A stretch of 64,000 nucleotides of DNA. Origin: Hormiphora californensis (lineage: Eukaryota; Animalia; Ctenophora). The stretch spans positions 2,418,001 through 2,482,000 of the forward strand of contig CM035356.1 of NCBI GenBank assembly GCA_020137815.1. The letters are read 5' to 3'. Positions 1-55,646 of this stretch are shown piece by piece. The notes under the pieces are model-generated. The model did no database searches. It was not told the DNA's origin and saw only the letters and a program-made list of their open reading frames with translations. Within the stretch, counting starts at the first letter, position 1; each line of letters starts with the position of its first letter. Made by a program: the position numbers and the translations under genes.

Positions 1-830
1 CATCAATAGCTTGGAGAACTAGAGGCACCTGCCAATCAGTGAAATCATTCAGCCTTCCCAGTAGTTTGTAGGCTGTGTGGTGCTTCAAGCAGTACCCTGG
101 TCTAACTTGAGTGAGAGCTGTTATAGCCAACACAATCACTCTCTCATCAAAATCATTGACCATCTCCTCTAGATGGTGGAACATCATTTGCTCTTCAAAT
201 ACATCTAAAGACAGCCCATGGACCTTGAGACACCCACCAATTGCTAGCCTCCTCACATACACACTACTATCACTCAGGGCATGTTTCATGGGTCCTGCAA
301 TGTACTCAGCCAGGCTGGGTATACACAGGGATCCCAGGGTTTGGAGGGCGTGCCCACGGTGGATGGGGTCACTGTCGTGCATGATCTCTTTGGTTAGCTG
401 GTTGACACAGAGAAGGGCGGTGTCCTGGTGGAGATGGGCATATTGGGCAGCAAACAAACCAATCAACCTCTTGATACTACCCTCCTTTACTTGAACCTGA
501 TGGGGTTAGTTGGTTGTTAAAACGGGGAAGGGAGGAAAGAAGCGGGTTAGCATTAGTTTAGTTTTAAAACTATTGGCGAAACTGAATCAATAAGTTGTCC
601 AATCATTCATTTTAGTCACATAGTTTTGGATACAAACTATTTTATTCATTATCGAAACTACCTAAACTATAATTTCTCACCTGGAGGACAATATCAGGGA
701 AGAGAGGGGACATATCCTTGCCTAGATAGACATTAGCCATTATCTTGGACATGACCTTCTTCAGCTTCTCTAGATCCCCGTTGTGACTCCTCAACATGGA
801 CCTCAGGTCCTCCAGCTCCGATGTCGACAT
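1..830 (-). CDS. AP4B1: AP-4 adaptor complex beta subunit, 5' part (exons 830-681 and 496-<1; continues off-window)
   Basis: Spliced translation MSTSELEDLRSML...LGKDMSPLFPDIVLQ|VQVKEGSIKRLIGLFAAQYAHLHQDTALLCVNQLTKEIMHDSDPIHRGHALQTLGSLCIPSLAEYIAGPMKHALSDSSVYVRRLAIGGCLKV...AYKLLGRLNDFTDWQ has the beta-adaptin N-terminal motifs and best resembles AP4B1 from recall. GT-AG intron 680-497, phase 0. Confidence 0.8.
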
Positions 831-1091
831 GTTGAGACGTGGCTAGAGGGGAGGGGAGAGGGGGTCAGAGAGTTAAGAGGTGGCTATAGAGACGGGGGGA
901 GGGAGGGAGAGTTGAGGTAAAGAGAGGGGAGGTAAAGGGAGGTAGGAACCACAGAGGGAGGGAGAACGGTAGGACGAGGGAAAGAGAAGGAGAAAGGTAG
1001 GGCGAGAGATAGAAAAGGCTAGAAAAAGAGAAACTAGAAAGTGATAATGAGTAACAGGTGCCAAACGTAAGAATACAGCATAGCTTCTATA

Positions 1092-4000
1092 CAGGGTGTG
1101 AACTGCATGTCGTGTTTGCTAGTCGCGAGCGCGCTTGCGAGACAAGCAAACACGTCAAGGTTCATTAACAAGCATGCTGCTCAGTCATTTTAGATTTAAT
1201 TCACAATGTAAGGATACCATGTAATAGGTGAGACTCTTGCCGTCACCCTCGTTCAAGTCCCGTGAAAAACGGAGCAGTACACGCAAATTGATGCCAATTT
1301 TCCTCGCGTGACCCCGATTCAGCAGTTTGAGACACCAACTCTTTAGGGGGCCATATCTCAGGAACCAGACAAGATAGGAAAAATCGCCGTCTAACGAGGC
1401 GTACAGTTTTTAATCTAGTTTACCACTGTACCGGCCGTTTCACTCTCCGACCTAAAACAAAAATCGCAACCCCACAAAACTTCAAAATAATGAAATTCGC
1501 ATCTCGCATGTCGTGTTGCATGTCGTGTTGCATGTCGTGTCATGTTATTGACGCGCTCGCGTTCAACTCTCACACAGCAGCTGCAGAACATGGCGGGAAA
1601 CATCGAGGAGTAGAGAGAGGGTCGGTGCCGAATCAAATATTTCTTGATCTTGATCTACTCCATCTCTCAGCTATCCTACCCCTCATCAACTCGATCTCTC
1701 AGCTACCCTACCCCTCATCTACTCCATCTTTCAGCTACCCTACCCCTCATCTACTCCATCTTTCAGCTACCCTACCCCTTATCTAGTCCATCTCTCAGCT
1801 ACCCTACTCCTCATCTACTCCATCTCTATGCTTCCCTAGCCCTCATCAACTCCATCTTTCAGCTACCCTACCCCTAATCTAGTCCATCTCTCCGCTACCC
1901 TACTCCTCATCTACTCCATCTCTCAGCTACCCTACCTCCCATTTACTCCATCTCTCAGCTACCCTACCTCCCATTTACTCCATCTCTCAGCTTCCCTACC
2001 TCCCATTTACTCCATCTCTCAGCTTCCCTACCTCCCATTTACTCCATCTCTCAGCTACCCAACCTCCCATTCACTCCATCTATCAGCTTCCCTACCTCCC
2101 ATTTACTCCATCTTTCAGCTTCCCTACCTCCCATTTACTCCATCGCTTACCTTCCCTACCTCCCATTTACTCCATCTCTCAGCTTCTCTACCTCCCATTT
2201 ACTCCATCTCTCAGCTTCCCTACCTCCCATTTACTCCATCTCTCATGTATCCTAACATTCCTACCCCTGAGAGATGGAGTAAATGGGAGGTAGGGAAGCT
2301 GAGAGATGGAGTAAATGGGAGGTAGGGTAGCTGAGAGATGGAGTAAATGAGAGGTAGGGAAGCTGAGAAATGGAGTAAATGGGAGGTAGGGTAGCTGAGA
2401 GATGGAGTAAATGGGAGGTAGGGAAGCTGAGAGATGGAGTAAATGGGAGGTAGGGAAGCTGAGAGATGGAGTAAATGGGAGGTAGGGAAGCTGAGAGATG
2501 GAGTAAATGGAAGGTAAGGAAGCTGAGACATGGAGTAAATGGGAGGTAGGTAAGCTGAGAGATGGAGTAAATGGGAGGTAGGGTAGCTGAGAGATGGAGT
2601 AAATGGGAGGTAGGGTAGCTGAGAGATGGAGTAAATGGGAGGTAGGGAAGCTGAGAGATGGAGTAAATGGGAGGTATGGTAGCTGAGAGATGGAGTAAAT
2701 GGGAGGTAGGGAAGCTGAGAGATGGAGTAAATGGAAGGTAAGGTAGCTGAGAGATGGAGTAAATGGGAGGTAGGGAAGCTGAGAGATGGAGTAAATGGGA
2801 GGTAGGGTAGCTGAGAGATGGAGTAAATGGGAGGTAGGGAAGCTGAGAGATGGAGTAAATGGGAGGTAGGGTAGCTGAGAGATGGAGTAAATGAGAGGTA
2901 GGGAAGCTGAGAAATGGAGTAAATGGGAGGTAGGGTAGCTGAGAGATGGAGTAAATGGGAGGTAGGGAAGCTGAGAGATGGAGTAAATGGGAGGTAGGGA
3001 AGCTGAGAGATGGAGTAAATGGGAGGTAGGGTAGCTGAGAGATGGAGTAAATGGGAGGTAGGGTAGCTGAGAGATGGAGTAAATGGGAGGTAGGGAAGCT
3101 GAGAGATGGAGTAAATGGAAGGTAAGGTAGCTGAGAGATGGAGTAAATGGGAGGTAGGGAAGCTGAGAGATGGAGTAAATGGGAGGTAGGGTAGCTGAGA
3201 GATGGAGTAAATGGGAGGTAGGGAAGCTGAGAGATGGAGTAAATGGGAGGTAGGGTAGCTGAGAGATGGAGTAAATGAGAGGTAGGGAAGCTGAGAAATG
3301 GAGTAAATGGGAGGTAGGGTAGCTGAGAGATGGAGTAAATGGGAGGTAGGGAAGCTGAGAGATGGAGTAAATGGAAGGTAAGGAAGCTGAGACATGGAGT
3401 AAATGGGAGGTAGGTAAGCTGAGAGATGGAGTAAATGGGAGGTAGGGTAGCTGAGAGATGGAGTAAATGGGAGGTAGGGTAGCTGAGAGATGGAGTAAAT
3501 GGGAGGTAGGGAAGCTGAGAGATGGAGTAAATGGGAGGTATGGTAGCTGAGAGATGGAGTAAATGGGAGGTAGGGAAGCTGAGAGATGGAGTAAATGGAA
3601 GGTAAGGTAGCTGAGAGATGGAGTAAATGGGAGGTAGGGAAGCTGAGAGATGGAGTAAATGGGAGGTAGGGTAGCTGAGAGATGGAGTAAATGGGAGGTA
3701 GGGAAGCTGAGAGATGGAGTAAATGGGAGGTAGGGTAGCTGAGAGATGGAGTAAATGAGAGGTAGGGAAGCTGAGAAATGGAGTAAATGGGAGGTAGGGT
3801 AGCTGAGAGATGGAGTAAATGGGAGGTAGGGAAGCTGAGAGATGGAGTAAATGGGAGGTAGGGAAGCTGAGAGATGGAGTAAATGGGAGGTAGGGTAGCT
3901 GAGAGATGGAGTAAATGGGAGGTAGGGTAGCTGAGAGATGGAGTAAATGGGAGGTAGGGAAGCTGAGAGATGGAGTAAATGGAAGGTAAGGTAGCTGAGA

Positions 4001-6110
4001 GATGGAGTAAATGGGAGGTAGGGAAGCTGAGAGATGGAGTAAATGGGAGGTAGGGTAGCTGAGAGATGGAGTAAATGGGAGGTAGGGAAGCTGAGAGATG
4101 GAGTAAATGGGAGGTAGGGTAGCTGAGAGATGGAGTAAATGAGAGGTAGGGAAGCTGAGAAATGGAGTAAATGGGAGGTAGGGTAGCTGAGAGATGGAGT
4201 AAATGGGAGGTAGGGAAGCTGAGAGATGGATCAAATGGGAGGTAGGGTAGCTGAGAGATGGAGTAAATGGGAGGTAGGGAAGCTGAGAGATGGAGTAAAT
4301 GGGAGGTAGGGTAGCTGAGAGATGGAGTAAATGGGAGGTAGGGAAGCTGAGAGATGGAGTAAATGGGAGGTAGGGTAGCTGAGAGATGGAGTAAATGAGA
4401 GGTAGGGAAGCTGAGACATGGAGTAAATGGGAGGTAGGGTAGCTGAGAGATGGAGTAAATGGGAGGTAGGGAAGCTGAGAGATGGAGTAAATGGGAGGTA
4501 GGGTAGCTGAGGGATGGAGTAAATGGGAGGTAGGGAAGCTGAGAGATGGAGTAAATGGGAGGTAGGTAAGCTGAGAGATGGAGTAAATGGGAGGTAGGGA
4601 AGCTGAGAGATGGAGTAAATGGCAGGTAGGGAAGCTGAGATATGGAGTAAATGGGAGGTAGGAAAGCTGAGAGATGGAGTAAATGGGTGGTAGGGTAGCT
4701 GAGTGATGGAGTAAATGGGAGGTAGGGAAGCTGAGGGATGGAGTAAATGGGAGGTAGGGAAGCTGAGAGATGGAGTAAATGGGAGGTAGGTAAGCTGAGA
4801 GATGGAGTAAATGGGAGGTAGGGAAGCTGAGAGATGGAGTAAATGGGAGGTAGGGTAGCTGAGAGATGGAGTAAATGGGAGGTAGGGAAGCTGAGAGATG
4901 GAGTAAATGGGAGGTAGGGTAGCTGAGAGATGGAGTAAATGGGAGGAAGGGAAGCTGAGAGATGGAGTAAATGGAAGGTAAGGTAGCTGAGAGATGGAGT
5001 AAATGGGAGGTAGGGAAGCTGAGAGATGGAGTAAATGGGAGGTAGGGTAGCTGAGAGATGGAGTAAATGGGAGGTAGGGAAGCTGAGAGATGGAGTAAAT
5101 GGGAGGTAGGGTAGCTGAGGGATGGAGTAAATGGGAGCTAGGGAAGCTGAGAGATGGAGTAAATGGAAGGTAGGTAAGCTGAGAGATGGAGTAAATGGGA
5201 GGTAGGGTATCTGAGAGATGGAGTAAATGGCAGGTAGGGAAGCTGAGATATGGAGTAAATGGGAGGTAGGTAAGCTGAGAGATGGAGTAGATGAGGAGGT
5301 AGGGAAGCTGAGAGATGGAGTAAATGGGAGGTAGGGTAGCTGAGAGATGGAGTAAATGGGAGGTAGGGTAGCTGAGAGATGGAGTAGATGAGGAGTAGGG
5401 TAGCTGAGAGATGGACTAGATAAGGGGTAGGGTAGCTGAAAGATGGAGTAGATGAGGGGTAGGGTAGCTGAAAGATGGAGTAGATGAGGGGTAGGGTAGC
5501 TGAGAGATCGAGTTGATGAGGGGTAGGATAGCTGAGAGATGGAGTAGATCAAGATCAAGAAATATTTGATTCGGCACCGACCCTCTCTCTACTCCTCGAT
5601 GTTTCCCGCCATGTTCTGCAGCTGCTGTGTGAGAGTTGAACGCGAGCGCGTCAATAACATGACACGACATGCAACACGACATGCAACACGACATGCGAGA
5701 TGCGAATTTCATTATTTTGAAGTTTTGTGGGGTTGCGATTTTTGTTTTAGGTCGGAGAGTGAAACGGCCGGTACAGTGGTAAACTAGATTAAAAACTGTA
5801 CGCCTCGTTAGACGGCGATTTTTCCTATCTTGTCTGGTTCCTGAGATATGGCCCCCTAAAGAGTTGGTGTCTCAAACTGCTGAATCGGGGTCACGCGAGG
5901 AAAATTGGCATCAATTTGCGTGTACTGCTCCGTTTTTCACGGGACTTGAACGAGGGTGACGGCAAGAGTCTCACCTATTACATGGTATCCTTACATTGTG
6001 AATTAAATCTAAAATGACTGAGCAGCATGCTTGTTAATGAACCTTGACGTGTTTGCTTGTCTCGCAAGCGCGCTCGCGACTAGCAAACACGACATGCAGT
6101 TCACACCCTG
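1092..6110. mobile_element. 5019-bp Foldback-like non-autonomous element (long TIRs plus internal 32-bp minisatellite)
   Basis: CAGGGTGTGAAC...GTTCACACCCTG termini. About 560 bp of unique outer arms are mirror copies (paired ORF coordinates sum to 7202). 5-bp direct repeat CTATA at 1087-1091 and 6111-6115. No transposase. Confidence 0.9.
1653..5550. repeat. 32-bp minisatellite CTCCATCTCTCAGCT(A/T)CCCTACCTCCCATTTA: ~18 units on the left arm, ~102 inverted units on the right arm
   Basis: Read directly. Orientation flips at a ~20-bp spacer near 2246-2266. The translation has a 32-aa period (three units). Confidence 0.95.
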
Positions 6111-6461
6111 CTATAATTGGTAAAAGTTGTACACAAACTTATCAGACTGCTGCCTGTTATTACTGATGCATATTATGAAAATGTTAAAATAGTTTTGCAC
6201 CTGTTTTTAAGATAAAAACACTTTTTAAGATAGTAAATGACTGAAATAAATGCACACATAATTCTGGTAAATCTTCACAAAAATATACAGGGACAAACAG
6301 TGTAAACACCCCTTTCATCAACATTTAAAATCTAGAATCACTATTACACGAATAGCTCTCAAAGAACACACATCAATCATCAAAACTAATATCTTCTCCA
6401 GCTATAGTATAGCATTGTGAATAGTCAAAGAAATCATATCTAACATTGGTGACGCTACATT

Positions 6462-7553
6462 CTAATCATCTTTACTGAGCACAGCGACATAACTCCCGGT
6501 CATAGGATCCAGTTTATTGTTCAGCATCCTAACTGCATCCTCCATTGAAACCCTACTGATGGGGTTGGGCAACACCAGCTCACCCTTCTCAACTCTATCC
6601 AAACATGACACCAAGAAACTCTGGAGAGATCCTAGTCGAGACGGGGAGGAGATAAGGGCACTGGGGTTGAGATATTGTAGGCAGATTGATTTGTTGAACA
6701 TTAACTCAGACAGGGCTGGGGAGAGTGGTTGTTGGTAATTTGAAAGGACCACTTTAGCTCCAGCAGTAGCAGCCATGAGGGCCACACCAATAGGCAGGGT
6801 TCCTGGTGAGAGTTGTTTAGATTTAACCACCCCGTCAGGATAAAATGGGCTGGCCTGCTGGAGAGTTATTATGACATTGAATCCCATATTTTCTGACTCA
6901 GAAATGAGTGTCTCTACCAGAGATTTGGGGTTTCTGTGTAGCCATCCCTCAACTGTTGAATCCACCTTGGAGCGATATGGCCCAAACAGAATATCTCGCT
7001 CTCCCTCCTCCCTCATGTAGACCACAACTTTACAACCCCTGGAATCCAGGACCTGAAGTGCCATCTGACCCGCTGGGGTGTGGGCATCACATAGCAACAC
7101 CGTGTCACCTCTCATTGCATGCTGGGTAATCACAAAAACTGGTATCAGAGCTTCAACTGCAACCGCAACGGAATAATCCTCTAGACCAAGGCCACCAATC
7201 TCGACACACAGACATCTCAGCACGATGACAGATGTTGCTAAACCGGAGTGATGGCTGATCTCTGGAACTAGAAAAACAACTCGTGCCCCAACCCTAATAT
7301 CCGTCACCTCGGACCCAACTTGACTGATTGTCCCCACTCCCACTGTCCCCACTCCCTCCGGTTGATCAAAGAAGTCCTGGCCAAACAGGTACCTCATCTG
7401 ATTTGTGAGACGTTTCCGTTGGACAGTACAGCAAGAGACCTGGACCGCCACCTCATGTTCCTGGAGAACTGGCTCAACCTGGCCATAGACTTTGGAGTAC
7501 TCGAAAAAGGGGACAGCTCCAGTGTGGTCAATGCCACACACAACTCGCTTCAT
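6462..7553 (-). CDS. CRYZL1: Quinone oxidoreductase-like / zeta-crystallin-like protein (CRYZL1/Fy-4-like), single exon, 363 aa
   Basis: MDR-family layout (VGTISQVGSEV, GDTVLLCDAHTPAGQMALQV..RGCKVV). The C-terminal part QQPLSPALSELMFNKSICLQYLN resembles CRYZL1 [22 protein letters not shown] from recall. Confidence 0.7.
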   Translation of the reverse strand: MKRVVCGIDHTGAVPFFEYSKVYGQVEPVLQEHEVAVQVSCCTVQRKRLTNQMRYLFGQDFFDQPEGVGTVGVGTISQVGSEVTDIRVGARVVFLVPEISHHSGLATSVIVLRCLCVEIGGLGLEDYSVAVAVEALIPVFVITQHAMRGDTVLLCDAHTPAGQMALQVLDSRGCKVVVYMREEGERDILFGPYRSKVDSTVEGWLHRNPKSLVETLISESENMGFNVIITLQQASPFYPDGVVKSKQLSPGTLPIGVALMAATAGAKVVLSNYQQPLSPALSELMFNKSICLQYLNPSALISSPSRLGSLQSFLVSCLDRVEKGELVLPNPISRVSMEDAVRMLNNKLDPMTGSYVAVLSKDD

Positions 7554-13648: not shown

Positions 13649-15752
13649 ATGACGGATGAACCGTTTGGCGAAACAATCCCAAGCCAGCAACCAAACATTT
13701 CATTCAAAAAACGGGTCAGTTTAAATTCAAGGTTAATCTCTTTTTGTAATGTTCTAGCCCTCCTTTACATTTGTAAAAGAGGGCGGGGCGGGGAAACAGG
13801 GTTGAGAAAGGCAAATCTCTTTTATCACCTGCCTCATTTAATTTGATCGCTCACAATAGACCCCATTAAGGCCAGAGGGGGGGGTCGACGGGTTTTTTGG
13901 GGTGTTTTTTGAGGTATACGTTATATGAAAGCGCTGGGCAAGGCGGATCGATTAGAACAGACGTCATCGATGTTGCGCGCACCGTTTGGCCAAAATTTGG
14001 GGGTTAACATTTGGCCTATAATGGATGTTAACCCCTATAAATCAGGATTGGTGGGGTCTAGAACATCCATCATTGTACCAAAGGCTTCGTCTTGTCTTGA
14101 TACAACTTCCTGAAAAGTTTTATGTCGTTACTCCAACTACTTCTTGATTTTTTTGGGGTTTACAAAATATGCGGAAAAAGCCCTTTTTGCCTCTAATTTT
14201 GCTCTTTTTTGGGACATCCTGCCTCACTTCCTGAAATAACGGCTAGGACTCAGACCTTGCCGTTTGGCATAGTTGTTCTAGAGACCGTGTTCTTCAAATT
14301 TGATGTAGCGATTTTTGATTAAGGCCCCCGTTCAAAAATTATAGGGGTTAACATTTGTTTTGTCCATGAAAATTTTATGTAAACCCCTATAATTTTTGAA
14401 CGGGGGCCTTAATCAAAAATCGCTACATCAAATTTGAAGAACACGGTCTCTAGAACAACTATGCCAAACGGCAAGGTCTGAGTCCTAGCCGTTATTTCAG
14501 GAAGTGAGGCAGGATGTCCCAAAAAAGAGCAAAATTAGAGGCAAAAAGGGCTTTTTCCGCATATTTTGTAAACCCCAAAAAAATCAAGAAGTAGTTGGAG
14601 TAACGACATAAAACTTTTCAGGAAGTTGTATCAAGACAAGACGAAGCCTTTGGTACAATGATGGATGTTCTAGACCCCACCAATCCTGATTTATAGGGGT
14701 TAACATCCATTATAGGCCAAATGTTAACCCCCAAATTTTGGCCCAACGGTGCGCGCAACATCGATGACGTCTGTTCTAATCGATCCGCCTTGCCCAGCGC
14801 TTTCATATAACGTATACCTCAAAAAACACCCCAAAAAACCCGTCGACCCCCCCCTCTGGCCTTAACACCCCTTCACATCCCACAGAGACATGTAGCAGTG
14901 CACAACAGTACGAATATATTCCAGCAGTGGGAGTTTAATGATTTAACTCAACCCTCCCAGTCCACACCACCACCCCCACACCAGGAACTTGTTCCTGATA
15001 CACACCACGATCCTCAACCTGATACACTACCACCTGCAGCAGCTCTCACACCACCAGAGAGGAGAAGCAAAAGGAAGAAAACTGCAAGAACGAACTATGT
15101 GTTCTTCGTTGAACAACCACCACGACCATCACACCCCATTGAGAAACAGAAAAGTAGTAAAACGCCTAAAAAGAAGCAGAAAAAAGGAAAACCAAAGAAA
15201 GTCGTTGCAAAACCTAAGAAGCCGAAAATGGCATCAACAAAAAAGAAACGAAAGCGAAAAAAAGACGAAGAGGATATTTCTGAAGATGATGAACCGGCGG
15301 AAAAGAGACGAAACTACGGGAAAATAAAGATCACACTCACTCGGCCAATCCACTCCATCCCCTACAGATCCCTGCCAAGGGCTTTCACAGAACACAGCTC
15401 ACGACAGAAACGGCGAAAAATAGCACCACCTCCTCCTCCAGTCGGCAACCCGGAAGATCCATTTGCGTTTCTGAGCATTCTCGACAGAATCGAGTTCATA
15501 TCTCCGGAAAATGCGTGTCAGAAACTTTCAGGAGAGTTTGATAGAGCTGAGAGGGAGTTGTCTAGGTTAGATCAGAAGTGGAGTCATTGGCCTGAGAGGT
15601 TTGCGGGTGTGACTAATGGGCAAGATGATACTGGACAGGGACAAGATGATATTCCCAGTGGAGAGGGTGAGTTACCAGATGATATTGGAGAGGGTGAGTT
15701 ACCAGCTGATATTGGAGAGGAGGGTGAGTTGCCAGTAATTGTTGTCCTGTGA
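13649..15752 (+). CDS. Uncharacterised Lys/Pro-rich, probably nuclear protein (~310 aa; exons 13649-13714, 14886-15752)
   Basis: Phase-0 donor CGG|GTCAGT and acceptor CACAG|AGA join MTDEPF...FKKR to the 284-aa ORF. Basic NLS-like tracts and a C-terminal GEGELPxDI repeat. Confidence 0.7.
13870..14861. mobile_element. 992-bp palindromic Kolobok-like MITE inside an intron
   Basis: TTAA TSD (13866-69, 14862-65), GG...CC termini, ~485-bp arms with few mismatches, ~22-bp spacer. Confidence 0.85.
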
Positions 15753-16504: not shown

Positions 16505-19500
16505 ATGTGTGGGGTAAAGGTGGTTATAATGGATATGAACAAGCACCTAGGGTGTGAGGTGTGTGAGGTGATAGCGGATATCCTCCTAAATGAGCTGTCA
16601 GTGTTTGGGGATCAGACTACTCAACATGGCCTCATGCTCGCCTGCCTTTCCTCACACACTGAGGTAAATAATGTGCTATACCCTTGTGTGACTCACACCG
16701 CATTTGGTAGATCAACTATAACAAGGTCTCCTAGTAGTGGTAGCTCCCAAAGCTTGCCTTGCTCGAACCTCTCTCACCACGCCCTACACATATTGTAAAG
16801 CTCAGTAATGAAACCTTTCAGATTATGTTTCCCCTACAAGTCACTAAAGAGCAGACCCTGTCAACTCTCAAGCGAAGTATTGAAAGTCTTGTCAAGTATT
16901 ACAGGTACAGTCAAATTGGGTTGGTTGGGGGTAGGGGTGAGGGAGGCGAGGGGTTTGGGATATAAGTGGTTCCGGGTTAGGGTTTAGAGGGAGAGGTGGA
17001 TGGATTAGCTAATGTTCGCCAAGAATTTAATAGTTCAAATCTTCAAACAATGTAGTTTTGCCAAGAATTTACTTATTAAATTGCCACTACTCCAGGGACA
17101 CGCCATTGGTGAAAGAGTGTTCTTCGACTGCTGTGTCACAGTGCCTTGAATTTGCCTTCCAAGCCAGCTCTAAACTACTCTCCAACACTTACAATCAGGT
17201 TAGTGGGAGAGGGAGAGGGAGAGAAACGAGAGTGTTCCTCTCCGACACTTGGAAGAGGGGGGGGGGAAGGAGGGAGAGAATATTGTTGCTAACTAAACAT
17301 CCTGCATAGACCCTCCTTTGATCCTAGGATTGAGGGAGCTCCCTAACCCTCCTATAATAATTTAAGTACAATTATCTGTTATATAGGTGACCGGTGGAAC
17401 AGAGGTTCTGATGATCACGTGTAACCCAACTTTTAAAACTACCGTCAACCAAGTTATGGGCAGCCAGAATCTCGCAGGGGTAAATTCACAAAATAAGAAA
17501 TTCACAAAACAACAAATACATGGAATACATATTTCACTGATAGACTCTATCCGATACACCTTCTGATAATGTTAAATACCCCTTGTTAGAGAGTGACAGT
17601 GCTAACTTTAGGAGAGGACACTAGATCAGACGAGATAGAATGTCTGACAGAGATAGATGATGTCTTAGTACCACCTGACCGTATCACCCTGGAGGTAATT
17701 GTCTATCGACTTGACTTACTTGACTTAAGGCGGGTGGAATTCCCGAACGCCTTGAACAAGCTTTCTCCACGCATCACGTTCCTCCATAACTGAAGCTATC
17801 TCCTTCACGTCTCCAAGACCCGTATCTTGCCGTAGAACATCCACAAAGGTTTTCGAGGGCCTGCCACGCTTACATTGACCGTGAGTAGGCTCCCAAAGGA
17901 GGACTTTGTGGAGTGTCAGCTCTGAGTGTCGTTGTGCATGTCCGGCAAGTCGTAGTCTATCGGGTGAGATTCATTGTTTAGGTTGCCTGGCTAGACTGTG
18001 TTTCGGGCGCCCCGCACCCTACAAATGTAAAGGGAGGGTTTTTTTTAGAACATAACAATGTTTAGGTACTGGCACAAGAGACAAGCTGATCAAGTCCAAC
18101 ATATCGGCTATATATTTTTTTTGGGGCATTAATATATCGGCTATATTAGTTCGCCCCTGAACTGTACCTATATCTCAGTGTCCCTCCCCTCTCTCAGAGA
18201 ACGATTAGAAAGTGGTTGTTCAGCTCTGATCTCCGGATGTTAAAACTGGAACTCCCAAACGGTGTATCTCTATCTTGTGATATTGTTCCCACCCACATAA
18301 ACCCACACCGTCTATCTCTGGAAGCCCAGGAGAGTGTTGTGTTTGATCCTGCAAAGATTGAGGGTAATAGGGGGCAGGAGCCAGTGTTGCTAAAAGCTAC
18401 AAAGGTCTTCCGAGCAGGTACAGGTTGATGAAGTTTCACTAATTATAGTAACCCCCCCATCCCCAAACCGGGATATGTGTAGTTACCCACCCCCACCCCC
18501 ACAGCAGCTGACCATGTACCCTGCTTCTAATATATCGTCCCCAGACCAGATATGCGAGTCTGTATTGTTTGGAAGTGGGAGGATTCTTCTCCCGGCTACC
18601 CATTGGTCCATTGATTGGGACGAGTTGGAGCAGATACAACAACGATTTGGTGCACTCTGTAAATCACTTTGCGAAAAGGTACTTGGTGCTGCTTCCTAGA
18701 GAGTTACTGCTATTCATTATTATCAGTAGCCAGTATCCTTGGTATCGAAGACACCTCACATCGCGGCCTTCGTTTGGTGCGCTTTGCGCGCCGGCAAGGG
18801 AGGGGTAACTTCGTTACCAACCAGTATCCCAAATTACAAATATCTTGTCATGGCCTGTGATTTGTGCCACACTTTCTGTCATGGTGGCACACCTTTTCTT
18901 GAAACTAAACGTAGCGCGCGGCACTTCTGTCATGCTGAAAGTTTTCAAAGGATGACTCTACCTTGACAGGGCGGGATCCACGCCGCGCACACGCTCACTC
19001 AGAGAGGTCCTCAAACATCAGATTCAGACCAATTCGGGGGCAATTTCTCATTTGCCGCATACGGCGTCTAGACGGCGTCGCACCGCCGTCTAGACGGTGT
19101 CTAGACGGGTTTTGATAAAATCAGCTAAAAACGGTACCAAAATTGCTTGAAACGGGTTATAGACGGTATCAGACGGGTTATAGACGGTATCAGACGGTGT
19201 TGCGACGGTATCAGACGGTCTCTAGACGGTACCGTCCCGGTGTCTAGACGGTGTCTGGACGGTCTCTAGACGGTACCCGTCCAAAGTTGAGACGGCACGT
19301 CTAAAAATTGTACCAGACGTTGAGACGGACTTTTAGAACTCCGTCTGTATTTCAGACGGAGTTTTAAAAGTACGTCTCAACGCAGTCTAAAGGAAAATCG
19401 ATGAAAGTACCGTCTAGACAACGTCTCAACTGAAACCGGTCAACATACCGTCTAGACAACGTCTAAACAGAATCTCGCGATTCAGTTTCAAATACCGTCT

Positions 19501-21209
19501 AGACAACTTCTCCAGCAATTTCGATACGAATACCGTCTAAACAACGTCTAGACAACGTCTTAAGCGAATCCGATACAGATACCGTTTAGACAACGTCTCA
19601 ATACCTACACTATCTATCACTGATAGTATCAGCCATAGACAGTATCTCACAGTTGTATTACAACGCTTGTTATAAAATAAAATAAAAAAGGTTTGAACAA
19701 AACAACTGTTTTGGTATCTCCACATTCACTCTTACATCCAGCTATCGCGTTGTAATACAACTGTGAGATACTGTCTATGGCTGATACTATCAGTGATAGA
19801 TAGTGTCGGTATTGAGACGTTGTCTAGACGGTATCTGTATCGGATTCGCTTAAGACGTTGTCTAGACGTTGTTTAGACGGTATTCGTATCGAAATTGCTG
19901 GAGAAGTTGTCTAGACGGTATTTGAAACTGAATCGCGAGATTCTGTTTAGACGTTGTCTAGACGGTATGTTGACCGGTTTCAGTTGAGACGTTGTCTAGA
20001 CGGTACTTTTATCGGTTTTCCTTTAGACTGCGTTGAGACGTACTTTTAAAACTCCGTCTGAAATACAGACGGAGTTCTAAAAGTCCGTCTCAACGTCTGG
20101 TACAATTTTCAGACGTGCCGTCTCAACTTTGGACGGATACCGTCTAGAGACCGTCCAGACACCGTCTAGACACCGGGACGGTACCGTCTAGAGACCGTCT
20201 GATACCGTCGCAACACCGTCTGATACCGTCTATAACCCGTCTAGAGACCGTCTGATACCGTCTATAACCCGTTTCAAGCAATTTTGGTACCGTTTTTAGC
20301 TGATTTTATCAAAACCCGTCTAGACGGTATACCGTCTAGACACCGTCTAGACGGTGGTGCGACGCCGTCTAGACGCCGTATGCGGCAAATGAGAAATTGC
20401 CCAATTCGGGCTGAGGGATGGCCTCGAAGGACCCCTGACCCAGGATCCTTTTATTTATTTCTTGTGACAATTTCGAATCTTCTCACTGAAGAAACTTTGT
20501 TTCAGGACCGCGTTTTGCTCTGCCAGGGCTGTACCGAGGAGCAAGTTCAGGGGCTGTTCATGATCCTACCTAATCCAAATGGGAGTGCTTTAGTTAGACC
20601 AGTCCTGTGTTCCGAACTAACCCTTCCCCTGGCTAGGACCCAGTGTGCCACACCGGACAGTGAAACCGTAGCAATGATAGGTTTGTGTTGTTCTATCCAG
20701 AACCTTTTTTATCATAAAATGACTAATTGGTACATAATATTGACACTTTTCAAAATTACGACCCCAGACTCTATACTATTCCTGATGATAACCGGCACTT
20801 TCCAGTACCTAATATTCTTTTTTCTAAATGTATCTACTGACTCTAAACATCCATTGATTTCAGATGATTCTCTGTCACTGCTTGAGGTCTCTCCTGACCC
20901 CTACTCGCCCCTGAACCACACCTCCCATCTCCACGCCTTCCTTCAGACAAGGAAGCAGCAGTGTGAAAGTAGACCTCATTACCAGCAACAACCCAACAAT
21001 CGACAGACGGGAATTCAGCAAAAGGTTAAAATTAATAATCGCACATACAATTCACAATTCAAATAATCTCGGCCTGTTTTCTCTGGGGTCAATCAAAAGG
21101 CAGGGACATGATCGCTAAAATATTCTCTGTTTCTCAGGGACCAGAGCAACTATCACGATTAACGTATAACGGTGCACGTGCCATGGAAAACTCTCTCTAC
21201 AACGGCTGA
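16505..21209 (+). CDS. M1AP: Meiosis 1 arrest protein, 10 exons, ~434 aa
   Basis: Exons 16505-16663, 16822-16904, 17096-17198, 17387-17479, 17590-17694, 18198-18417, 18545-18678, 20506-20680, 20864-21024, 21138-21209, all phases consistent. ICESVLFGSGRILLPATHWSIDWDELEQIQQRFGALCKSL and YSPLNHTSHL match M1AP (LCESLTYG..ILRPTSCWQLDWDELETNQQHFHALCHSL; YNPLHVQSHL) from recall. Confidence 0.85.
17709..17954 (-). mobile_element. 5'-truncated RTE-clade LINE in M1AP intron 5
   Basis: Minus strand encodes RLAGHAQRHSELTLHKVLLWEPTHGQCKRGRPSKTFVDVLRQDTG...WRKLV..*, followed by an (AAGTC)n tail. 8-bp TSD GTCTATCG at 17701-17708 and 17955-17962. Confidence 0.85.
19039..20401. mobile_element. 1363-bp palindromic element with 9-bp TSD (Merlin/Mutator-like) in M1AP intron 7
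   Basis: GGCAATTTCTC...GAGAAATTGCC termini, TSD CAATTCGGG (19030-38, 20402-10), ~630-650-bp arms full of (CC)GTCTAGAC(GG) subrepeats, ~80-bp spacer. Confidence 0.85.
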
Positions 21210-21348: not shown

Positions 21349-23512
21349 TCAAAAGCACAGGAATTTGATAGCTCCGCTCCTCTTCGCACATCGACACACC
21401 TTACTATCGCTCTGTGGGAAGAGACGCGTTAGAAAACAGAGTGATTTTGTTACTGTTCGAGTAGATATTAAAGTGTTAGAGCAAATACAGGGTGTCCCAT
21501 ATATTCTGTGGGTCGGTTGGCGAGCTGTCACGCAAAAACGGTGATAGTTGTGTGAAAACAAACTACGGGAGTGTGCTGGATTAATTCCTTCCTAACTGAT
21601 GGCTTTGTTTTGAAATTAAATTTCAAAAGTTCATTTTTCATGAATGAACATTCCTGTCATTCATTCGTGAATTCTGAAATATTGTTTACCTTGAGTAAAA
21701 AACTTTTCTTTGGCTCGAAATTATCTTTCCAATGAGCACCATAAAAATCAAATTGAAGCACCGGATCGCATGGCAGGTGAGAAAATGCAAATGCATGATT
21801 TTGGCCATTCCTGCGACTTTCAATCAGCTGTATCACCGCTACTTTCAGTTCAATCCTTTTAAAAGTTTGGGTGAACATTGGTGAAGATAAGATCTTTGCT
21901 CACAAGAAAAATCAAGGTCAAAACTCAAAGTTCATTTTTCATATTTGGTAGTTCATTCCACTCATTCAGGAACAAACATCCCTAAGGTGACGAAAAGGTT
22001 TGGGTTTTGTTTGGCCCATGTCCTGAAACGACAGAGAGGTGTAAAAACGTGTTTCCGAGCTAGTTAGTGGGTGTCCATGTGATCATTATGATATCTGACA
22101 CCTTCGCTGAGCCATAATTAAGAGATTTTCTCAAATTCAAAAATGGGATACGAGTATTCTGCGATTGGTATCGTGCACCAATAACAAGAGATCCCATAGC
22201 ACCTCAAAAATTATGATTAGCTAAATGAAATGAGTTGATTAACGATTGAAAATGTTCGTTTAGTCCGACTTTACATTGGTTTTAATCTTTTCAATCGTAA
22301 ATCAACTCATTTCATTTAGCTAATCATAATTTTTGAGGTGCTATGGGATCTCTTGTTATTGGTGCACGATACCAATCGCAGAATACTCGTATCCCATTTT
22401 TGAATTTGAGAAAATCTCTTAATTATGGCTCAGCGAAGGTGTCAGATATCATAATGATCACATGGACACCCACTAACTAGCTCGGAAACACGTTTTTACA
22501 CCTCTCTGTCGTTTCAGGACATGGGCCAAACAAAACCCAAACCTTTTCGTCACCTTAGGGATGTTTGTTCCTGAATGAGTGGAATGAACTACCAAATATG
22601 AAAAATGAACTTTGAGTTTTGACCTTGATTTTTCTTGTGAGCAAAGATCTTATCTTCACCAATGTTCACCCAAACTTTTAAAAGGATTGAACTGAAAGTA
22701 GCGGTGATACAGCTGATTGAAAGTCGCAGGAATGGCCAAAATCATGCATTTGCATTTTCTCACCTGCCATGCGATCCGGTGCTTCAATTTGATTTTTATG
22801 GTGCTCATTGGAAAGATAATTTCGAGCCAAAGAAAAGTTTTTTACTCAAGGTAAACAATATTTCAGAATTCACGAATGAATGACAGGAATGTTCATTCAT
22901 GAAAAATGAACTTTTGAAATTTAATTTCAAAACAAAGCCATCAGTTAGGAAGGAATTAATCCAGCACACTCCCGTAGTTTGTTTTCACACAACTATCACC
23001 GTTTTTGCGTGACAGCTCGCCAACCGACCCACAGAATATATGGGACACCCTGTAGTAGCAGAGAATCAGAGAAAATCTCGTAATTGTCCCGCGGGGGCCC
23101 AACTAAAAGGTTGAAAAAAATGTTCGATATAAAAGCCAGCTAATCAGAAGAATTATATGTTATAAGCTGGGGGAAATGAAGTGTGTAAGTTCGGTACCTG
23201 TATGACTGAGTTGATGGGGTAGAACTTTCCAGCAGGGCTGGTACACCCCTGTTGTTGTGAGGCCGCCACTGGCTGGTAGTTCCTTGCTGCGTGGGCCCGA
23301 CTCTAGGTGAATAATGGTTAATAAACCTAATTTAGTAATTTGGGTCCTGATAATTCATAATACTGCAGAGTGAAGGAGCTAAAATCTTGATATGTTGTTA
23401 CCTTGAGGTTTAGTTGAAAGGCAGAGTCTCCGTTTGTTATTCGTCCAGCGAGACTGAGGGAAACAAGGACGCACAGGACAGCTGCAATCATCAAAACACA
23501 TCGGTTCATCAT
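21349..23512 (-). CDS. Small secreted 4-Cys peptide precursor, 92 aa, 3 exons (23512-23402, 23302-23198, 21411-21349)
   Basis: Spliced product MMNRCVLMIAAVLCVLVSLSLAGRITNGDSAFQLNLK|SRAHAARNYQPVAASQQQGCTSPAGKFYPINSVIQ|SDSKVCRCAKRSGAIKFLCF*. Signal-peptide-like N-terminus, canonical phase-0 introns. Confidence 0.75.
21488..23052. mobile_element. 1565-bp palindromic Tc1/mariner-type MITE in intron 2 of the peptide gene
   Basis: TA TSD, CAGGGTGTCCCA...TGGGACACCCTG termini, ~765-bp near-identical arms (mirror ORFs sum to 44540), ~35-bp spacer. Confidence 0.9.
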
Positions 23513-32400: not shown

Positions 32401-35400
32401 TGGGGATGCCAAACCTGGGAAGGGGATTGGTTATATGAGAGAGAGCGATTAGGATGGTAGGTATGGTATTCGGGACAAGAACGCTAGGTCTGAGACTAGG
32501 AGAGAACTAAACGATTGGAATTTGATTATAGCCTATACAGCCAGAGCACTCCTCCAGGATGCGCTATACGGATGAGGTGATTTGTGGGTAAGATCTGCTG
32601 AACCTCTAGGCGGCGTGAGAGCTACTTAATACTAGCAGCAGTAGAGCTAGGAAGGAACTAGAATTGCAGCTGCTGGAGCTAGTGAGTGATCTATGAATCT
32701 TTGTTACGTCATTTGCACCTCTGATCTCTCTAGAAGATTACAGTGCACAGCTCTGCAGAGATGAATGACCTTGAATATTATTGCAAGGTATCACTATCAC
32801 TACCCAAGTAGTACCAATTATAGTTTATAACCTCCCCTGCCTTGCCTAGCTCGACCCTCTATCCAGAAGTAAAGGAGGGTTAGAAATTAGAACATAACAA
32901 CCCCTTCCTACCTTCAGCTATTTTCATGGTCAGTACTTTATCTGCCTCAGGTAGTTTCCTTGGGAACATTAGGAGGGGTATGGCTGATAGAATGGCTGTT
33001 ACCCCCGCCATGATGAACCCAGTCCACCAGGCGCCCACCCAGTCTGGATGCATGGGGTCGAGACCATCGGGCTCCGAGAAATCCACGTAGAATCGCAACA
33101 TGAATCCTGGGTGGGGAGGGAGCATGGGTTAGTTGAGATCCAGGATATAACTATGTAGGTAACTGCAAGTAATGACTCATGGAGTACAGGGTGTCCCACT
33201 GTCACGCAAAGACAGTGGGACACCCTGTACATCAGTCAGAAAATCTTCCAACACTAACCTCCAAACGCGAACCCAAATATAGGACCCAGACAGCTCATAC
33301 TCCCCATGACCCCATAGTATCCCCCAACTTGGGAGGGCGGGAAGATCTCATCTAGGAAGGGTGGTCCGAGGGAGTTTATGGGTGTTCCACCCAGACCAAA
33401 TAGCAGTGCTCCAATAATGAAGATATAGTACCACCGAGAGGGCGAGTTTGCTGCTTCCTCTGAAAACAGAATATATCGGGTAGTTAGAAAAGAGTGTTTT
33501 GTATTTATTTTGAATGCTGTTCTATTATTAGAACCTCTCTCATCAAGGGATGGAGAAAAGATAGGATTTAGGGGAAATAGAGAGAGAGAGAGAGAGACGA
33601 TAGGTGGAGTGATCGTATGACAAACAATATCGATTGTCATGCAGGCCAGTTTAAACATATAGCTATGCATAACTAGCTAATTTAATCGGTTTTATAATCT
33701 TTGAAAATAAAGAATGACGCAAATCAGTGACCATACTCTAGCCTTTCAATTTCATAAAGAATGTTGAAAAAACAAAGAAACATCATTCATTCGGACTATT
33801 AGCAATGATGTGACTGACAGTACTGGCTAATGATAAACAAGTAACTCACCATCGGAGTTACAGTTAGTAACATTCAGGGGTGAGTTGTCAGCACTGCAAA
33901 GAGCACTGTCTGATCCGGGGATAATGCTCTTCCCCTCTGTTGAGGTTGTCTCTACCGGGGCTAGGGAACCACTGCCTGTTATCCTTACCCTGAGGGGGAT
34001 AGATGAGGTGTTACCATGGTAACCATGGAGTGGTAACATCCTGCAGGGGTTGCTAGAGAGGTTGCACGCAGCTTCTTGGATACTTCTAGAGGGGGGGGGG
34101 GTTCTTGTCCTGTTCTGATAGATTGCTTCACAGATCAATCAAACATTATCGTGCAGTAGGAGAATTAAAGAGAGAGAGAGAGAGAGCGAGTAACTGAGAG
34201 GATGTGTGTGACAGACAAACGTGTCACAAGAGTTTTATGAAACTTGGGTCTAATAGATTTCTGAGCACTCTCATTCTTCATTCTTCTTACAAATACGTAA
34301 GCATAAAGTATCTCACTGCATTTCTTTTAGAACATTACAAAGTTAAATTTCTGTAACTCGGTATGCTTGTAAGAATCAGCAGATTGTGTACGTGTGCTTC
34401 ACGTACGGCCGGTAGATGCTCCACATATTTACACGGACATGTCAAAACCGGAAAAAGAACATGCAGCTTAGAGAGAAGAAGATTTGTGAGTCTGTATGTG
34501 AGTTGAGAGGGGAACTCAGTTTCTTGATACTGAGACCCCTTGTTCTCTCTCTCATCACACACACACACACAGGAACAACATTGGAAGATGGAGTTCTGTT
34601 TTCTTGGAAGACTGCCAGAATAAGAAGTAACATGCAGTTATACACACCTGGATAAATCTCTCGCGGGGACTGTGAAAAATTTTCTGCGAAAAAGGTAAAA
34701 ATATGAACTAACGAAATCAAACACAACATGAATTGTTATTTCACACAACGATTAAAGCTAGATTCCACTTTCTAGTCCAGTGGAGTATGGAACAGTGGAG
34801 TATGGAACAGTGGGGGAACAGTGGGGGAACAGTGGGGGAACAATGCTAGCCCATTCATATAGTTACACTTACGTCTCAGTGAGATGAGGAATAGTAAATA
34901 TGAGCGCACCGACTCCCATCACAATAATTCCCAATCCGATCCACTTGGGCTTGTTGTGCCGACAGAAATGTGATATAAACATGACTGTTAGAGCACAGGA
35001 AATATCATAGGCATTGATAATAAAGGAACTCTTGGTGGAGGATAACTCGAACTGTTTCTCTATCGTTGAGAGGTTTACTGATATCTGGGAACGGGAAAGG
35101 GGTGTTATTTAATTCCTGGTAAAGTGCTCAACAGAATCTGGATTCTGGAGCTAAGTAAGTACGATGTTTCACGTATTACTTTGTGGTGTTATGGGATAGG
35201 TATGTGAAATCAGATTTTATTTTCTAACAATTCTTGTGCTCCTTCTATAATATTTTAAAACAAATCGTGTACTTCCCCTAATGCCCTACCATGGTATTGG
35301 TCATGTGATGAACAAGGAAGGCCAGGCAGAAGAAGGCGAAGAACCACTTGGCCGAGTTGAATTTCTGAAGGAAGTCTGGTCTGATGTTGAGGAGGCCACA

Positions 35401-42940: not shown

Positions 42941-43528
42941 TAAAGTCGGATTTTTTGAAACTGTCACCCCCCTGGGTATTTTCAAATTTCGTAAATGACC
43001 ATAAATCCGGTTCCTGACGAGATAGAGACTTGAAATTTGGAGGTTACGAAGATCTTGCTAAGTTCTTCCGAACCTCCAAATTTCAAGTCTCTATCTTATC
43101 AGGAACCGGAGATATGGCAAATTTTGTTATTTCAGGGGGGTGACAGTTTCAAAAAATCCGACTTTATGGATAACTAGATTCATAGCGCTTGCTGCTTGTA
43201 GTTACAAAGTTACAAAGTTTTTCGGAGATTTTTGAAAAAACCAAAAAAAAACGATTTGAAAATTTTGCGATCGTGATTTCTAACTTTTTCCCCCGCGCCG
43301 AAATTTGATGTTTTTAACGCGCGCGCTTGGACACGCGCAAAACAAAAACGCGCATTAACTTTTCATCATCAGGTAAAGTCGGATTTTTTGAAGTTGTCAC
43401 CCCCCTTTTCGTGCGCGGAAAGTTTTAGCGCGTCACATCACATGATAACGTGTGGTGTGCGCGTCAAAATTGATAAATTTCACATGCGCGGTCATTTTGG
43501 GGTGACAACTTCAAAAAATCCGACTTTA
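42941..43528. repeat. Two adjacent inverted-repeat units sharing the end TAAAGTCGGATTTTTTGAA..TGTCACCCC (42941-43166, 43374-43528)
   Basis: The motif is present four times as two inverted pairs, with an internal hairpin CCGGTTCCTGA...TCAGGAACCGG. Confidence 0.7.
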
Positions 43529-47000: not shown

Positions 47001-48458
47001 GAATTGTTCAAAATGGCTCAACACCTCCATCAGTTTTAAACAGCAACTTTTCCCATGATAAGTCTCCTGAGTTGAGTATCCATGATCGGCCGGTAGACTC
47101 TGTGTTCGGTGAGATAAGTCTGGTAGAAAGGAGTGTTCTACCCTCAGAGGTATCTCCTGACAACTGTACCAGAGAGAGCAGCCCAGGAGACCCCACTATC
47201 AGGAGTTTTGAGGGGGCAACCATTGGAAGTTTGAACAGCGATTCTGATAAGAGAATGAGCGATGGAAACCTTGATGGCAGTGAGGTAACCCAGGAAGATG
47301 ACAAGATATCACCTGTTTCGGTTGTCTCCAAGGGGACAGAAAAGGAAATCTCTAATGAGGGACAGATGAAGTCTCATAGTGAGGGGACAGAGGAACTTCA
47401 AAAGGAAGAGGTGGATGAGAATTCTGTGTCGGAAGCAGACAATACACGTTCAGATATCCCCCTGAATCAAATCTGTAAGCTCAGTGTGAAGGATGAGAGT
47501 TCTGAAGAAGTAAGAAGTTTGAGGGATGAGAACAGTTTAAAGGACGTTGAAAGTCTGAAAGACCAAGACAGTTTGACAGATAACAGCTTTGAACCAAGTC
47601 CTGATAGATTCGAATCTGGCCATTCAACCCATTATATAAGCCCTGAAAGGTGCGGTTCAATAAGCTCAACCATGACTAAAATAAGCCCAGAAAGGTCCGG
47701 GGTAGTCTGTTTGCAGAGTCCGGAGAGACTCACAACAGAACAGGTTCCGGAGAGGTTCACAACTCCACATTCAGATGGTTCGCCTGAACGACAGCTGACA
47801 GTTCCTGATAGTCACGAAGATGGAAGACTTGAAGATCAACATGTTGGTCATCCAGCGACGTTCATTGAGGGATCAGATCTCGACAATGAGGGATCTCTTA
47901 AAAGTGATTCGATCAGTAGTGATCTGCAACTCTCTGGACCGGAACCAAATAACGAACAATACAACTCGGAAGATCTGTATTCAGACCAGTACTCCGAGGA
48001 ACCTGACAATATAAACAGTCTCAAGCAGGAGGGTCTATTGTATAACGGGGGTCAAGATTCAGACGATATTCTAACTGGAGATCTCCTAAGTGAGAGTTCA
48101 GAGGAAGTAGAGGGGAAGTTGTATGATTCGGAGGGGAGGGACGCCCAGGGGAGGTTGTATGGGGAGGTATCTAGTCGGGAGGGTAGGTATGAGAGGATGG
48201 GATCTAGGGATGAGTCTTATACATGACTACACTGACTATACAGGAGGGTATACAGACGAACAGGCAACTTACAATACAACAGATCAGGATGTTTCAGAGG
48301 TAGCTCCTCTAGACCACAACAACTCCAGGTTCGCTCCACTCCCCGCCATTCGACCACTCAGGACCAGCTTCTCCGCAGGAACCCTGGCATTCCTCAGAAA
48401 GCAGGGTAATGATATGGACCTAGAGGAAAGGTCTGAACCTGAGGAAGAGGGAACCTGA
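44054..48458 (+). CDS. Large disordered orphan protein (~1.2 kaa; basic N-terminus, acidic Ser/Glu-rich C-terminus), apparent 1-nt frameshift near 48223
   Basis: Phase-consistent exons 44054-44123, 44338-44547, 44679-45201, 45240-45261, 45333-45470, 45617-45700, 45806-48226. Coding-like sequence continues in another frame to 48458. No recognised domain. Confidence 0.65.

Positions 48459-48886: not shown

Positions 48887-55646
<6,760 letters not shown>

What the first reader, a model, noticed from the sequence alone, without database searches (positions are those of the whole stretch)
1092..6110. 5-kb foldback with unique outer arms, an inward-facing asymmetric minisatellite and an unusual CAGGG / 5-bp TSD combination
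Seen: identical-looking ~560-bp outer arms, then 32-bp repeats that are divergent at the outer edge and homogeneous inside, ~18 units left versus ~102 inverted units right. GCATGTCGTGTT occurs at the terminus (1105) and about three times at ~1506-1541 (candidate transposase sites). The TSD is CTATA. Known: CAGGG ends usually go with 8-bp (hAT) or TA (Tc1/mariner) TSDs, while 5-bp TSDs go with Transib CAC ends. Inference: a young, hard-to-classify element acting as a vehicle and nursery for satellite DNA, inserted between two same-strand genes.
Basis: partly seen in the sequence, partly recalled or inferred. Interest (0 to 1): 0.75.

Follow-up and report, generated by a model that had tools for sequence, protein, structure and literature searches.

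The report
Comb-jelly foldback transposon carrying a minisatellite
This is a real, recent 5-kb mirror-image jumping element in a comb jelly that copied 5 bases of its landing site and carries a growing 32-base repeat; it belongs to a multi-copy family likely moved by a hAT5-type enzyme encoded elsewhere, a layout already known from fruit-fly foldback elements.

Summary
The arms are identical for 736 bp, with 18 repeat units on the left and about 102 on the right. A public contig runs from the left flank straight into the right flank with one CTATA, so the duplication is truly 5 bp and the insertion is polymorphic. The 14 other junction contigs shown are not TA-flanked. Arm, centre and 32-bp unit are all highly multi-copy in the host (a Pleurobrachia comb jelly by its neighbour gene), with roughly 50-55 units per centre. 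Arm and unit also occur, diverged, in a related organism. The right array grew by nested block duplication: an exact 910-bp repeat at 27 units. Three bases that are rare in the family are mirrored on both arms, which points to arm-to-arm copying. 'Hard to classify' is overstated: 5-bp duplications define the known hAT5 group, and the CAGGGTG end resembles hATm's TAGGGTG. No transposase was found, so membership is unproven. The layout matches Tetris and Galileo of Drosophila. 'Vehicle' is supported, 'nursery' of free satellite is untested, and the 102-unit length is not confirmed by long reads. Verdict: a modest new variant of a known kind.

The parts
1087..1091 (+). left copy of the 5-bp target site duplication (CTATA)
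   Evidence: empty-site contig with a single copy in run X3
1092..1652 (+). left outer arm of the terminal inverted repeat, non-coding, starts CAGGGTGTG
   Evidence: 561 of 561 identical to the right arm; multi-copy in X3 and X4, about 90% alike in X10 and X11; no Pfam hit in its longest frame
1105..1116 (+). terminal copy of the 12-bp motif, candidate transposase site (inferred)
1506..1540 (+). three tandem inner copies of the 12-bp motif (two exact, one 11 of 12), candidate subterminal transposase sites (inferred)
   Evidence: 3 of 2000 base shuffles of the arm hold even one 10-mer of it
1653..2245 (+). left 32-bp minisatellite array, about 18 units; units 1-8 old type, first five mirrored exactly on the right
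2246..2266 (.). 21-bp central spacer at the head-to-head junction of the two arrays
   Evidence: bridged by many contigs in X3 and X4, no cover in X10 and X11
2267..5549 (-). right 32-bp minisatellite array, about 102 units, two alternating main variants, nested block duplications
2457..4230 (-). exact 910-bp direct repeat at a lag of 864 bp (27 units = 15 + 12): youngest visible expansion, or an assembly over-expansion
   Evidence: run of 27 matching units against at most 8 in 300 shuffles of unit order
5550..6110 (-). right outer arm, ends CACACCCTG
6111..6115 (+). right copy of the 5-bp target site duplication (CTATA)

Best explanation
This is a non-coding foldback DNA element with a true 5-bp target duplication, one recent insertion of a multi-copy comb-jelly family, likely cut and pasted in trans by a hAT5-type transposase, whose internal 32-bp repeat likely grew on one arm by block duplication while the outer arms were likely kept identical by copying from each other. 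Step 1 (shown): it inserted at an AT-rich site with a 5-base duplication; the empty allele exists. Step 2 (inferred): a transposase made elsewhere binds the CAGGGTG ends and the repeated 12-bp motif. Step 3 (shown): the 32-bp unit is an old part of the family, joined to the same arm in a related organism, and the head-to-head centre is shared by many copies in the host. Step 4 (pattern shown, process inferred): the right array grew from an alternating 64-bp dimer by nested 12-, 15- and 27-unit duplications, likely by slippage or template switching in gap repair or by unequal sister exchange. Step 5 (inferred): conversion between the two arms stops inside the array, so the outer 736 bp stay mirrored while array lengths drift apart.
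For: Empty site: a 3054-bp contig of X3 covers 500-1091 and goes on with the 25 bases that follow the right CTATA (tables 7 and 8); a 1531-bp X4 contig also runs on past 1091, its letters not shown. Not TA: 12 contigs in the rows shown leave the window at 1092 and 2 at 1091, so none is TA-flanked (201 less-supported rows were not shown). Multi-copy: summed depth steps from 80 (X3) and 232-480 (X4, unique flank) to 1e5-1e6 at 1092. Centre depth 0.87M and 0.78M, peak unit depth 49M and 40M, ratio 55 and 52. Block history. Mirrored rare bases: at 1201 and 1296 all tallied depth in all four runs reads another base, at 1288 over 99.8% in X3 and X4, yet both arms of this copy carry the window base. 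Class: hAT5 = hAT with 5-bp TSDs (PMC12730594, PMC9004415, passages); hATm ends TAGGGTG, and hATm-NA6 matches 8 of our first 9 bases.
Against: No transposase was found or linked: the element has none, no genome is held, and two metagenome scans gave 0 hits. I found no paper showing hAT5 end sequences (supplement search gave 0). All hATm ends found start with T; CAGGGTG had 0 hits in those supplements. The same first 8 bases (CAGGGTGT) start two TA-flanked Tc1/mariner-like elements in this window (21488, 33187), so the end alone does not decide the class. Only one TSD is proved. The tool warns that summed contig depth is not a copy number and that contigs drop rare variants; the spacer-based element count differs sixfold between runs (354 and 56). 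The 910-bp exact repeat may be an assembly error; without it 75 units remain.
Confidence: 0.6

Rival explanations
1. The element is real and mobile as described, but is moved by an undescribed or non-hAT transposase with 5-bp duplications, for example an odd branch of the CMCT group.
For: CMCT elements mostly have CA..TG ends and 2-5 bp TSDs (PMC12730594 passage), which fits CA..TG and 5 bp. No hAT5 end sequence was available to compare.
Against: Transib's invariant CAC, A-rich nonamer and GC-rich targets (PMC1131882 passages) are not met; the five flank pentamers seen hold 3-5 A/T each. The end is one base from hATm's TAGGGTG.
Confidence: 0.25
2. It is a Tc1/mariner-type foldback (TA duplication) and CTATA is an accident, such as three filler bases at the right end.
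For: Its first 8 bases equal those of two TA-flanked elements in the window, and the left flank ends in TA.
Against: The right end is followed by CTATA, not TA; the empty site has one CTATA; 14 of 14 other junction contigs shown are not TA-flanked.
Confidence: 0.04
3. The element is real but the 18-versus-102 asymmetry is mostly an assembly over-expansion, and the mirrored rare bases are polishing errors.
For: An exact 910-bp repeat lies in the right array; no long read was available; the three bases are not tallied in contigs.
Against: Variant units are ordered in a nested history over the whole array; removing the duplicate leaves 75 units; the family mean of about 50-55 units per centre makes long arrays normal; errors would not be expected at mirrored positions of both arms (inference).
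Confidence: 0.1

Closest known systems
Tetris foldback of Drosophila virilis (PMC4079207; parts 2-4 of 6 read)
   Same: Long inverted arms made of an outer non-repetitive domain and an inner block of tandem repeats, no ORF, no autonomous partner found, repeats more uniform in long arrays, shared by two species, arrays expanded inside the element.
   Different: Tetris has 8-10 bp TSDs (assigned to Mutator), a 220-bp AT-rich unit and few intact copies; here 5-bp TSD, a 32-bp strand-skewed unit, a 21-bp centre, a high-copy family and a polymorphic insertion between genes. Free arrays were studied for Tetris and are untested here.
Galileo (P superfamily) of Drosophila mojavensis (PMC3573991; passages)
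   Same: Two-arm non-autonomous copies, tandem repeats inside the arms whose number differs between the two arms, 98-100% identity between arms of one copy, repair from the other end proposed.
   Different: 7-bp TSD, about 210-bp repeats in 0-3 copies, known transposase.
hAT5 group (described in PMC12730594 and PMC9004415, passages; the original Repbase Report and Putnam 2007 not seen)
   Same: 5-bp TSD; found in invertebrates and fish.
   Different: Defined by a hAT transposase, which was not found here; hAT5 end sequences not seen; no foldback or minisatellite form and no comb-jelly member turned up in my searches.
hATm family (PMC6004678; passages and supplement rows)
   Same: Ends TAGGGTG..CACCCTA against CAGGGTG..CACCCTG here.
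   Different: First base T, and 8-9 bp TSDs.
Transib (PMC1131882; passages)
   Same: 5-bp TSD.
   Different: Invariant CAC, RSS-like nonamer and GC-rich targets are all absent.

Membership tests
hAT5 | 5-bp target site duplication | tested here: met
   CTATA on both sides and single in the empty allele; one site only
hAT5 | hAT-family transposase in the element or an autonomous partner with the same ends | not testable with these tools
   no genome held; element has no coding frame; scans 0
hAT5 | end sequence like known hAT5 ends | tested here: inconclusive
   hAT5 ends not found in print; resembles hATm TAGGGTG but also TA-flanked elements of this window
canonical hAT / hATm | 8-9 bp TSD | tested here: not met
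   only length 5 matches among 2-12; empty site
Transib | 5-bp TSD | tested here: met
Transib | invariant CAC end and A-rich nonamer | tested here: not met
   end reads CAGGG and no A-rich nonamer lies in the first 40 bases (definition)
Transib | GC-rich targets | tested here: not met
   five flank pentamers hold 3-5 A/T each; four are consensus of mixed contigs, so weak
Tc1/mariner | TA duplication (definition recalled) | tested here: not met
   14 of 14 other junction contigs shown are not TA-flanked; right end followed by CTATA
PHIS NuwaII | CTNAG target and GG ends | tested here: not met
   target CTATA, end CA (definition PMC4482050)
Foldback architecture (Tetris, Galileo type) | long inverted arms with inner tandem repeats and no coding middle | tested here: met
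Mutator-type foldbacks (Tetris) | 8-10 bp TSD | tested here: not met
TE-derived satellite DNA | long arrays of the unit free of the element's arms | not testable with these tools
   short-read contigs cannot span arrays; about 50-55 units per centre can be explained by arrays inside elements

The most novel reading that the evidence does not exclude
An undescribed lineage of cut-and-paste transposons (CAGGG ends, 5-bp AT-rich targets) is now spreading hundreds of self-expanding minisatellite hairpins through a comb-jelly genome, each copy keeping its arms identical by copying from itself while its array grows, so that the population holds dated, single-locus stages of satellite birth.
Probability: 0.2. 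Interest if true: 0.65.

Novelty: new variant of a known kind. Interest (0 to 1): 0.35.

Why it matters
Published foldbacks with inner tandem repeats are mostly Mutator- or P-type and mostly from flies; a 5-bp-TSD, likely hAT5-driven one in a comb jelly would show that the layout arises again from another enzyme family. Because the insertion is polymorphic and the family is large, array length can be read per copy in long reads, which makes the question of whether arrays grow before or after jumping directly testable. The insert also puts a 5-kb hairpin into a gap of only about 610 bp between two same-strand genes, 250 bp from a splice acceptor, so an effect on expression is possible but untested.

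Tried and rejected
No whole genome is held, so copies, TSDs and a partner could not be tabulated. Metagenome scans with a 21-base end pattern and a 27-base unit pattern gave 0 matches each. No look-alike of the arm in earlier scan notes. Rfam: 33 matches at E up to 1, all below their gathering scores, the best being miRNA hairpin models on the central foldback; no tRNA in the window, so a B-box-like stretch near 1250 was dropped. The 1122-aa open frame in the array is a repeat by-product: only Pro-MCH and YLP low-complexity hits with 0 passing stretches. The 32-bp unit has no clear source in the arm (best local score 20). No standard poly(A) signal among 9 hexamers in the intergenic gap, so whether the insert lies in a 3' UTR is open; no RNA run was examined. 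Lack of cover of the central spacer in X10 and X11 is not proof of absence. The protein atlas gave no answer. Three reviews were not held. The ctenophore loop-anchor GC motif (PMC12221973, passages) could not be compared because its sequence is in a figure. 'hAT5_DR' in PMC3517528 (passage) sits in the Buster clade and was not used. PMC12220107, PMC9659126 and the EDTA v2 preprint, passages only, added names but no end sequences. ADAR-type editing, noted for other hairpin elements of this genome, does not fit the three rare bases (A>T, C>T, C>A, mirrored on both arms).

Full report
Observation. The element runs from 1092 to 6110 with CAGGG and CCCTG ends and CTATA on both sides; only a 5-base duplication fits among lengths 2-12. 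The outer arms are 561 of 561 identical and the first mismatch comes after 736 bases, so the first five repeat units are mirrored too. The arrays hold 18.4 and 102.5 copies of 32 bp, head to head around a 21-bp spacer. The 12-bp motif lies at 1105, 1506, 1518 and, with one change, 1530, and nowhere in the window outside the element. Both neighbours are on the minus strand: an adaptin-beta gene and an ADH_N-domain gene. The latter is 98% identical to a EukProt record of Pleurobrachia bachei, so the host is a comb jelly of that genus or close to it.

Empty site and TSD. No genome is held, so I used public runs. One search listed 12 runs; I laid four (X3 and X4 of organism A, two samples; X10 and X11 of organism B). 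In X3 a 3054-bp contig at depth 80 covers 500-1091 and continues with the 25 bases at 6116-6140, so the empty allele has one CTATA. An X4 contig of 1531 bp also runs on beyond 1091; its letters were not shown. The X3 contig stops exactly 30 bases after the start of CTATA, which is where a second path from a filled allele would join a graph of 31-letter words; this is a hint only. Other junctions: the rows shown have 5, 3 and 4 contigs leaving at 1092 and 2 leaving at 1091, so none of these 14 is TA-flanked; 201 weaker rows were not shown. Their mixed consensus ends are AT-rich.

Family. Summed contig depth jumps from 80 (X3) and 232-480 (X4, unique flank) to 1e5-1e6 at 1092. The tool warns that this is no copy number; the lowest per-base values listed give about 580-670 times the flank, so several hundred arms is a rough reading. 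The central spacer is bridged by many contigs at depth 0.87M and 0.78M, so the head-to-head centre is a family trait and not a fold-back artefact of this assembly. Peak unit depth over spacer depth is 55 and 52: arrays are normal cargo and this copy, with about 120 units, would be about twice the mean. Against precision: the spacer-based element count differs sixfold between the runs (354 and 56). Organism B holds arms at about 90% identity and units at mostly under 90%, and one X10 contig joins a unit to the same arm junction, so arm and unit are an old pair. Some contigs share only the first 33-38 bases of the end, and others skip parts of the arm, which suggests sister families and deletion forms.

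Growth of the array. The right array alternates two main variants (33 of 42 adjacent pairs of these two alternate). It holds an exact 910-bp repeat at a lag of 864 bp, made of 15- and 12-unit blocks that themselves recur; the run of 27 matching units compares with at most 8 in 300 shuffles. This is block duplication. The process (slippage, template switching in gap repair, unequal exchange) is inferred. The duplicate could be an assembly error; without it 75 units remain against 18.

Arm copying. At 1201 and 1296 all tallied depth in all four runs reads a base other than the window's, and at 1288 over 99.8% in X3 and X4, yet both arms of this copy carry the window base. Contigs drop rare variants, so this shows rarity, not absence. 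Three rare changes on both arms need copying from one arm to the other at some time, in this copy or its recent ancestor (inference). Identity ends five units into the array, where lengths diverge.

Class. A hAT group with 5-bp TSDs, hAT5, is described and placed in the Blackjack lineage (PMC12730594, passages; PMC9004415, passages; the original reports not seen). hATm ends read TAGGGTG (PMC6004678, passages and supplement rows). Transib fails on CAC, nonamer and target composition (PMC1131882, passages), NuwaII on target and ends (PMC4482050, abstract and passages). Against hAT5: no transposase is linked, I saw no hAT5 end sequence, two TA-flanked elements in this window share the first 8 bases, and CMCT elements also have CA..TG ends with 2-5 bp TSDs. 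I put hAT5-type at about 0.6 and another 5-bp lineage at about 0.25. It works like a hAT-type cut-and-paste passenger; membership is not shown.

Known layout. Tetris has the same anatomy and was shown to seed satellite arrays (PMC4079207, parts 2-4 of 6 read). Galileo has arm repeats that differ in number between arms (PMC3573991, passages). Searches for the present combination found nothing: CAGGG with 5-bp, hAT, TSD and TIR 0 papers; AGGGTG with Blackjack 0; hAT5 with ctenophore 2 papers, one read in passages with no ctenophore element and one unrelated by title; listings showed no comb-jelly foldback by title or abstract start. Repbase and Dfam could not be searched and may hold this family; supplements of ctenophore genome papers and of bioRxiv preprints were not seen.

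Setting. Without the insert the stop of the ADH-type frame and the adaptin ATG are about 610 bp apart; an AG acceptor behind an 85% pyrimidine tract lies 12 bases before the ATG. The window holds at least five other palindromic elements with TTAA, TA or 9-bp duplications, so foldbacks are commonplace in this genome.

Verdict. Real, young, with a proved 5-bp TSD and a family-wide minisatellite cargo. The layout is known and the TSD has a known home. What is new is the combination and the host, plus a legible record of array growth and arm copying. Interest 0.35.

Noticed in passing
window 21488-23052 and 33187-33227: Two TA-flanked palindromic elements starting CAGGGTGTCCC (1565 bp with 753-bp identical arms; a 41-bp mini form); they share the first 8 bases with the 5-bp-TSD element.
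   Followed up: partly
window 13870-14861 and 49865-50314: Palindromic elements with TTAA duplications (GG..CC and AG..CT ends).
   Followed up: partly
window 19039-20401: Foldback with inner 10-11 bp repeats and a 9-bp duplication (CAATTCGGG; a 7-bp reading with one more end base also fits); likely Mutator-type.
   Followed up: partly
window 42941-43166 and 43374-43528: Two small related palindromes with TAAAGTCGG ends, likely TA-flanked.
   Followed up: no
window 830-1091 and 6116-6462: The two same-strand genes are only about 610 bp apart without the insert, with a long pyrimidine tract and AG acceptor 12 bases before the adaptin ATG; this could be a trans-splice site (recalled feature of comb jellies, untested).
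   Followed up: partly
window 6405-6475: The ADH_N-type frame stops about 19 codons earlier than its 98%-identical EukProt relative and their last residues differ.
   Followed up: no
window 1241-1318: In organism B runs this part of the arm has 40-80 times the depth of the rest of the arm, so a short piece may be shared with another repeat.
   Followed up: no
window 1092-1129: Contigs in X3 and X11 share only the first 33-38 bases of the end and then diverge: candidate sister families or the autonomous partner.
   Followed up: no
window 57741-58481: A second minisatellite, 37 bp times 20 at 96% match, not in the family studied.
   Followed up: no
window 45806-48226: An 806-codon acidic open frame with no Pfam match; not identified.
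   Followed up: partly
window 2267-5546: The array is strongly strand-skewed (45.5% G, 3.4% C) with G-runs of 2-3, a possible weak G-quadruplex former that might add to instability; untested.
   Followed up: partly
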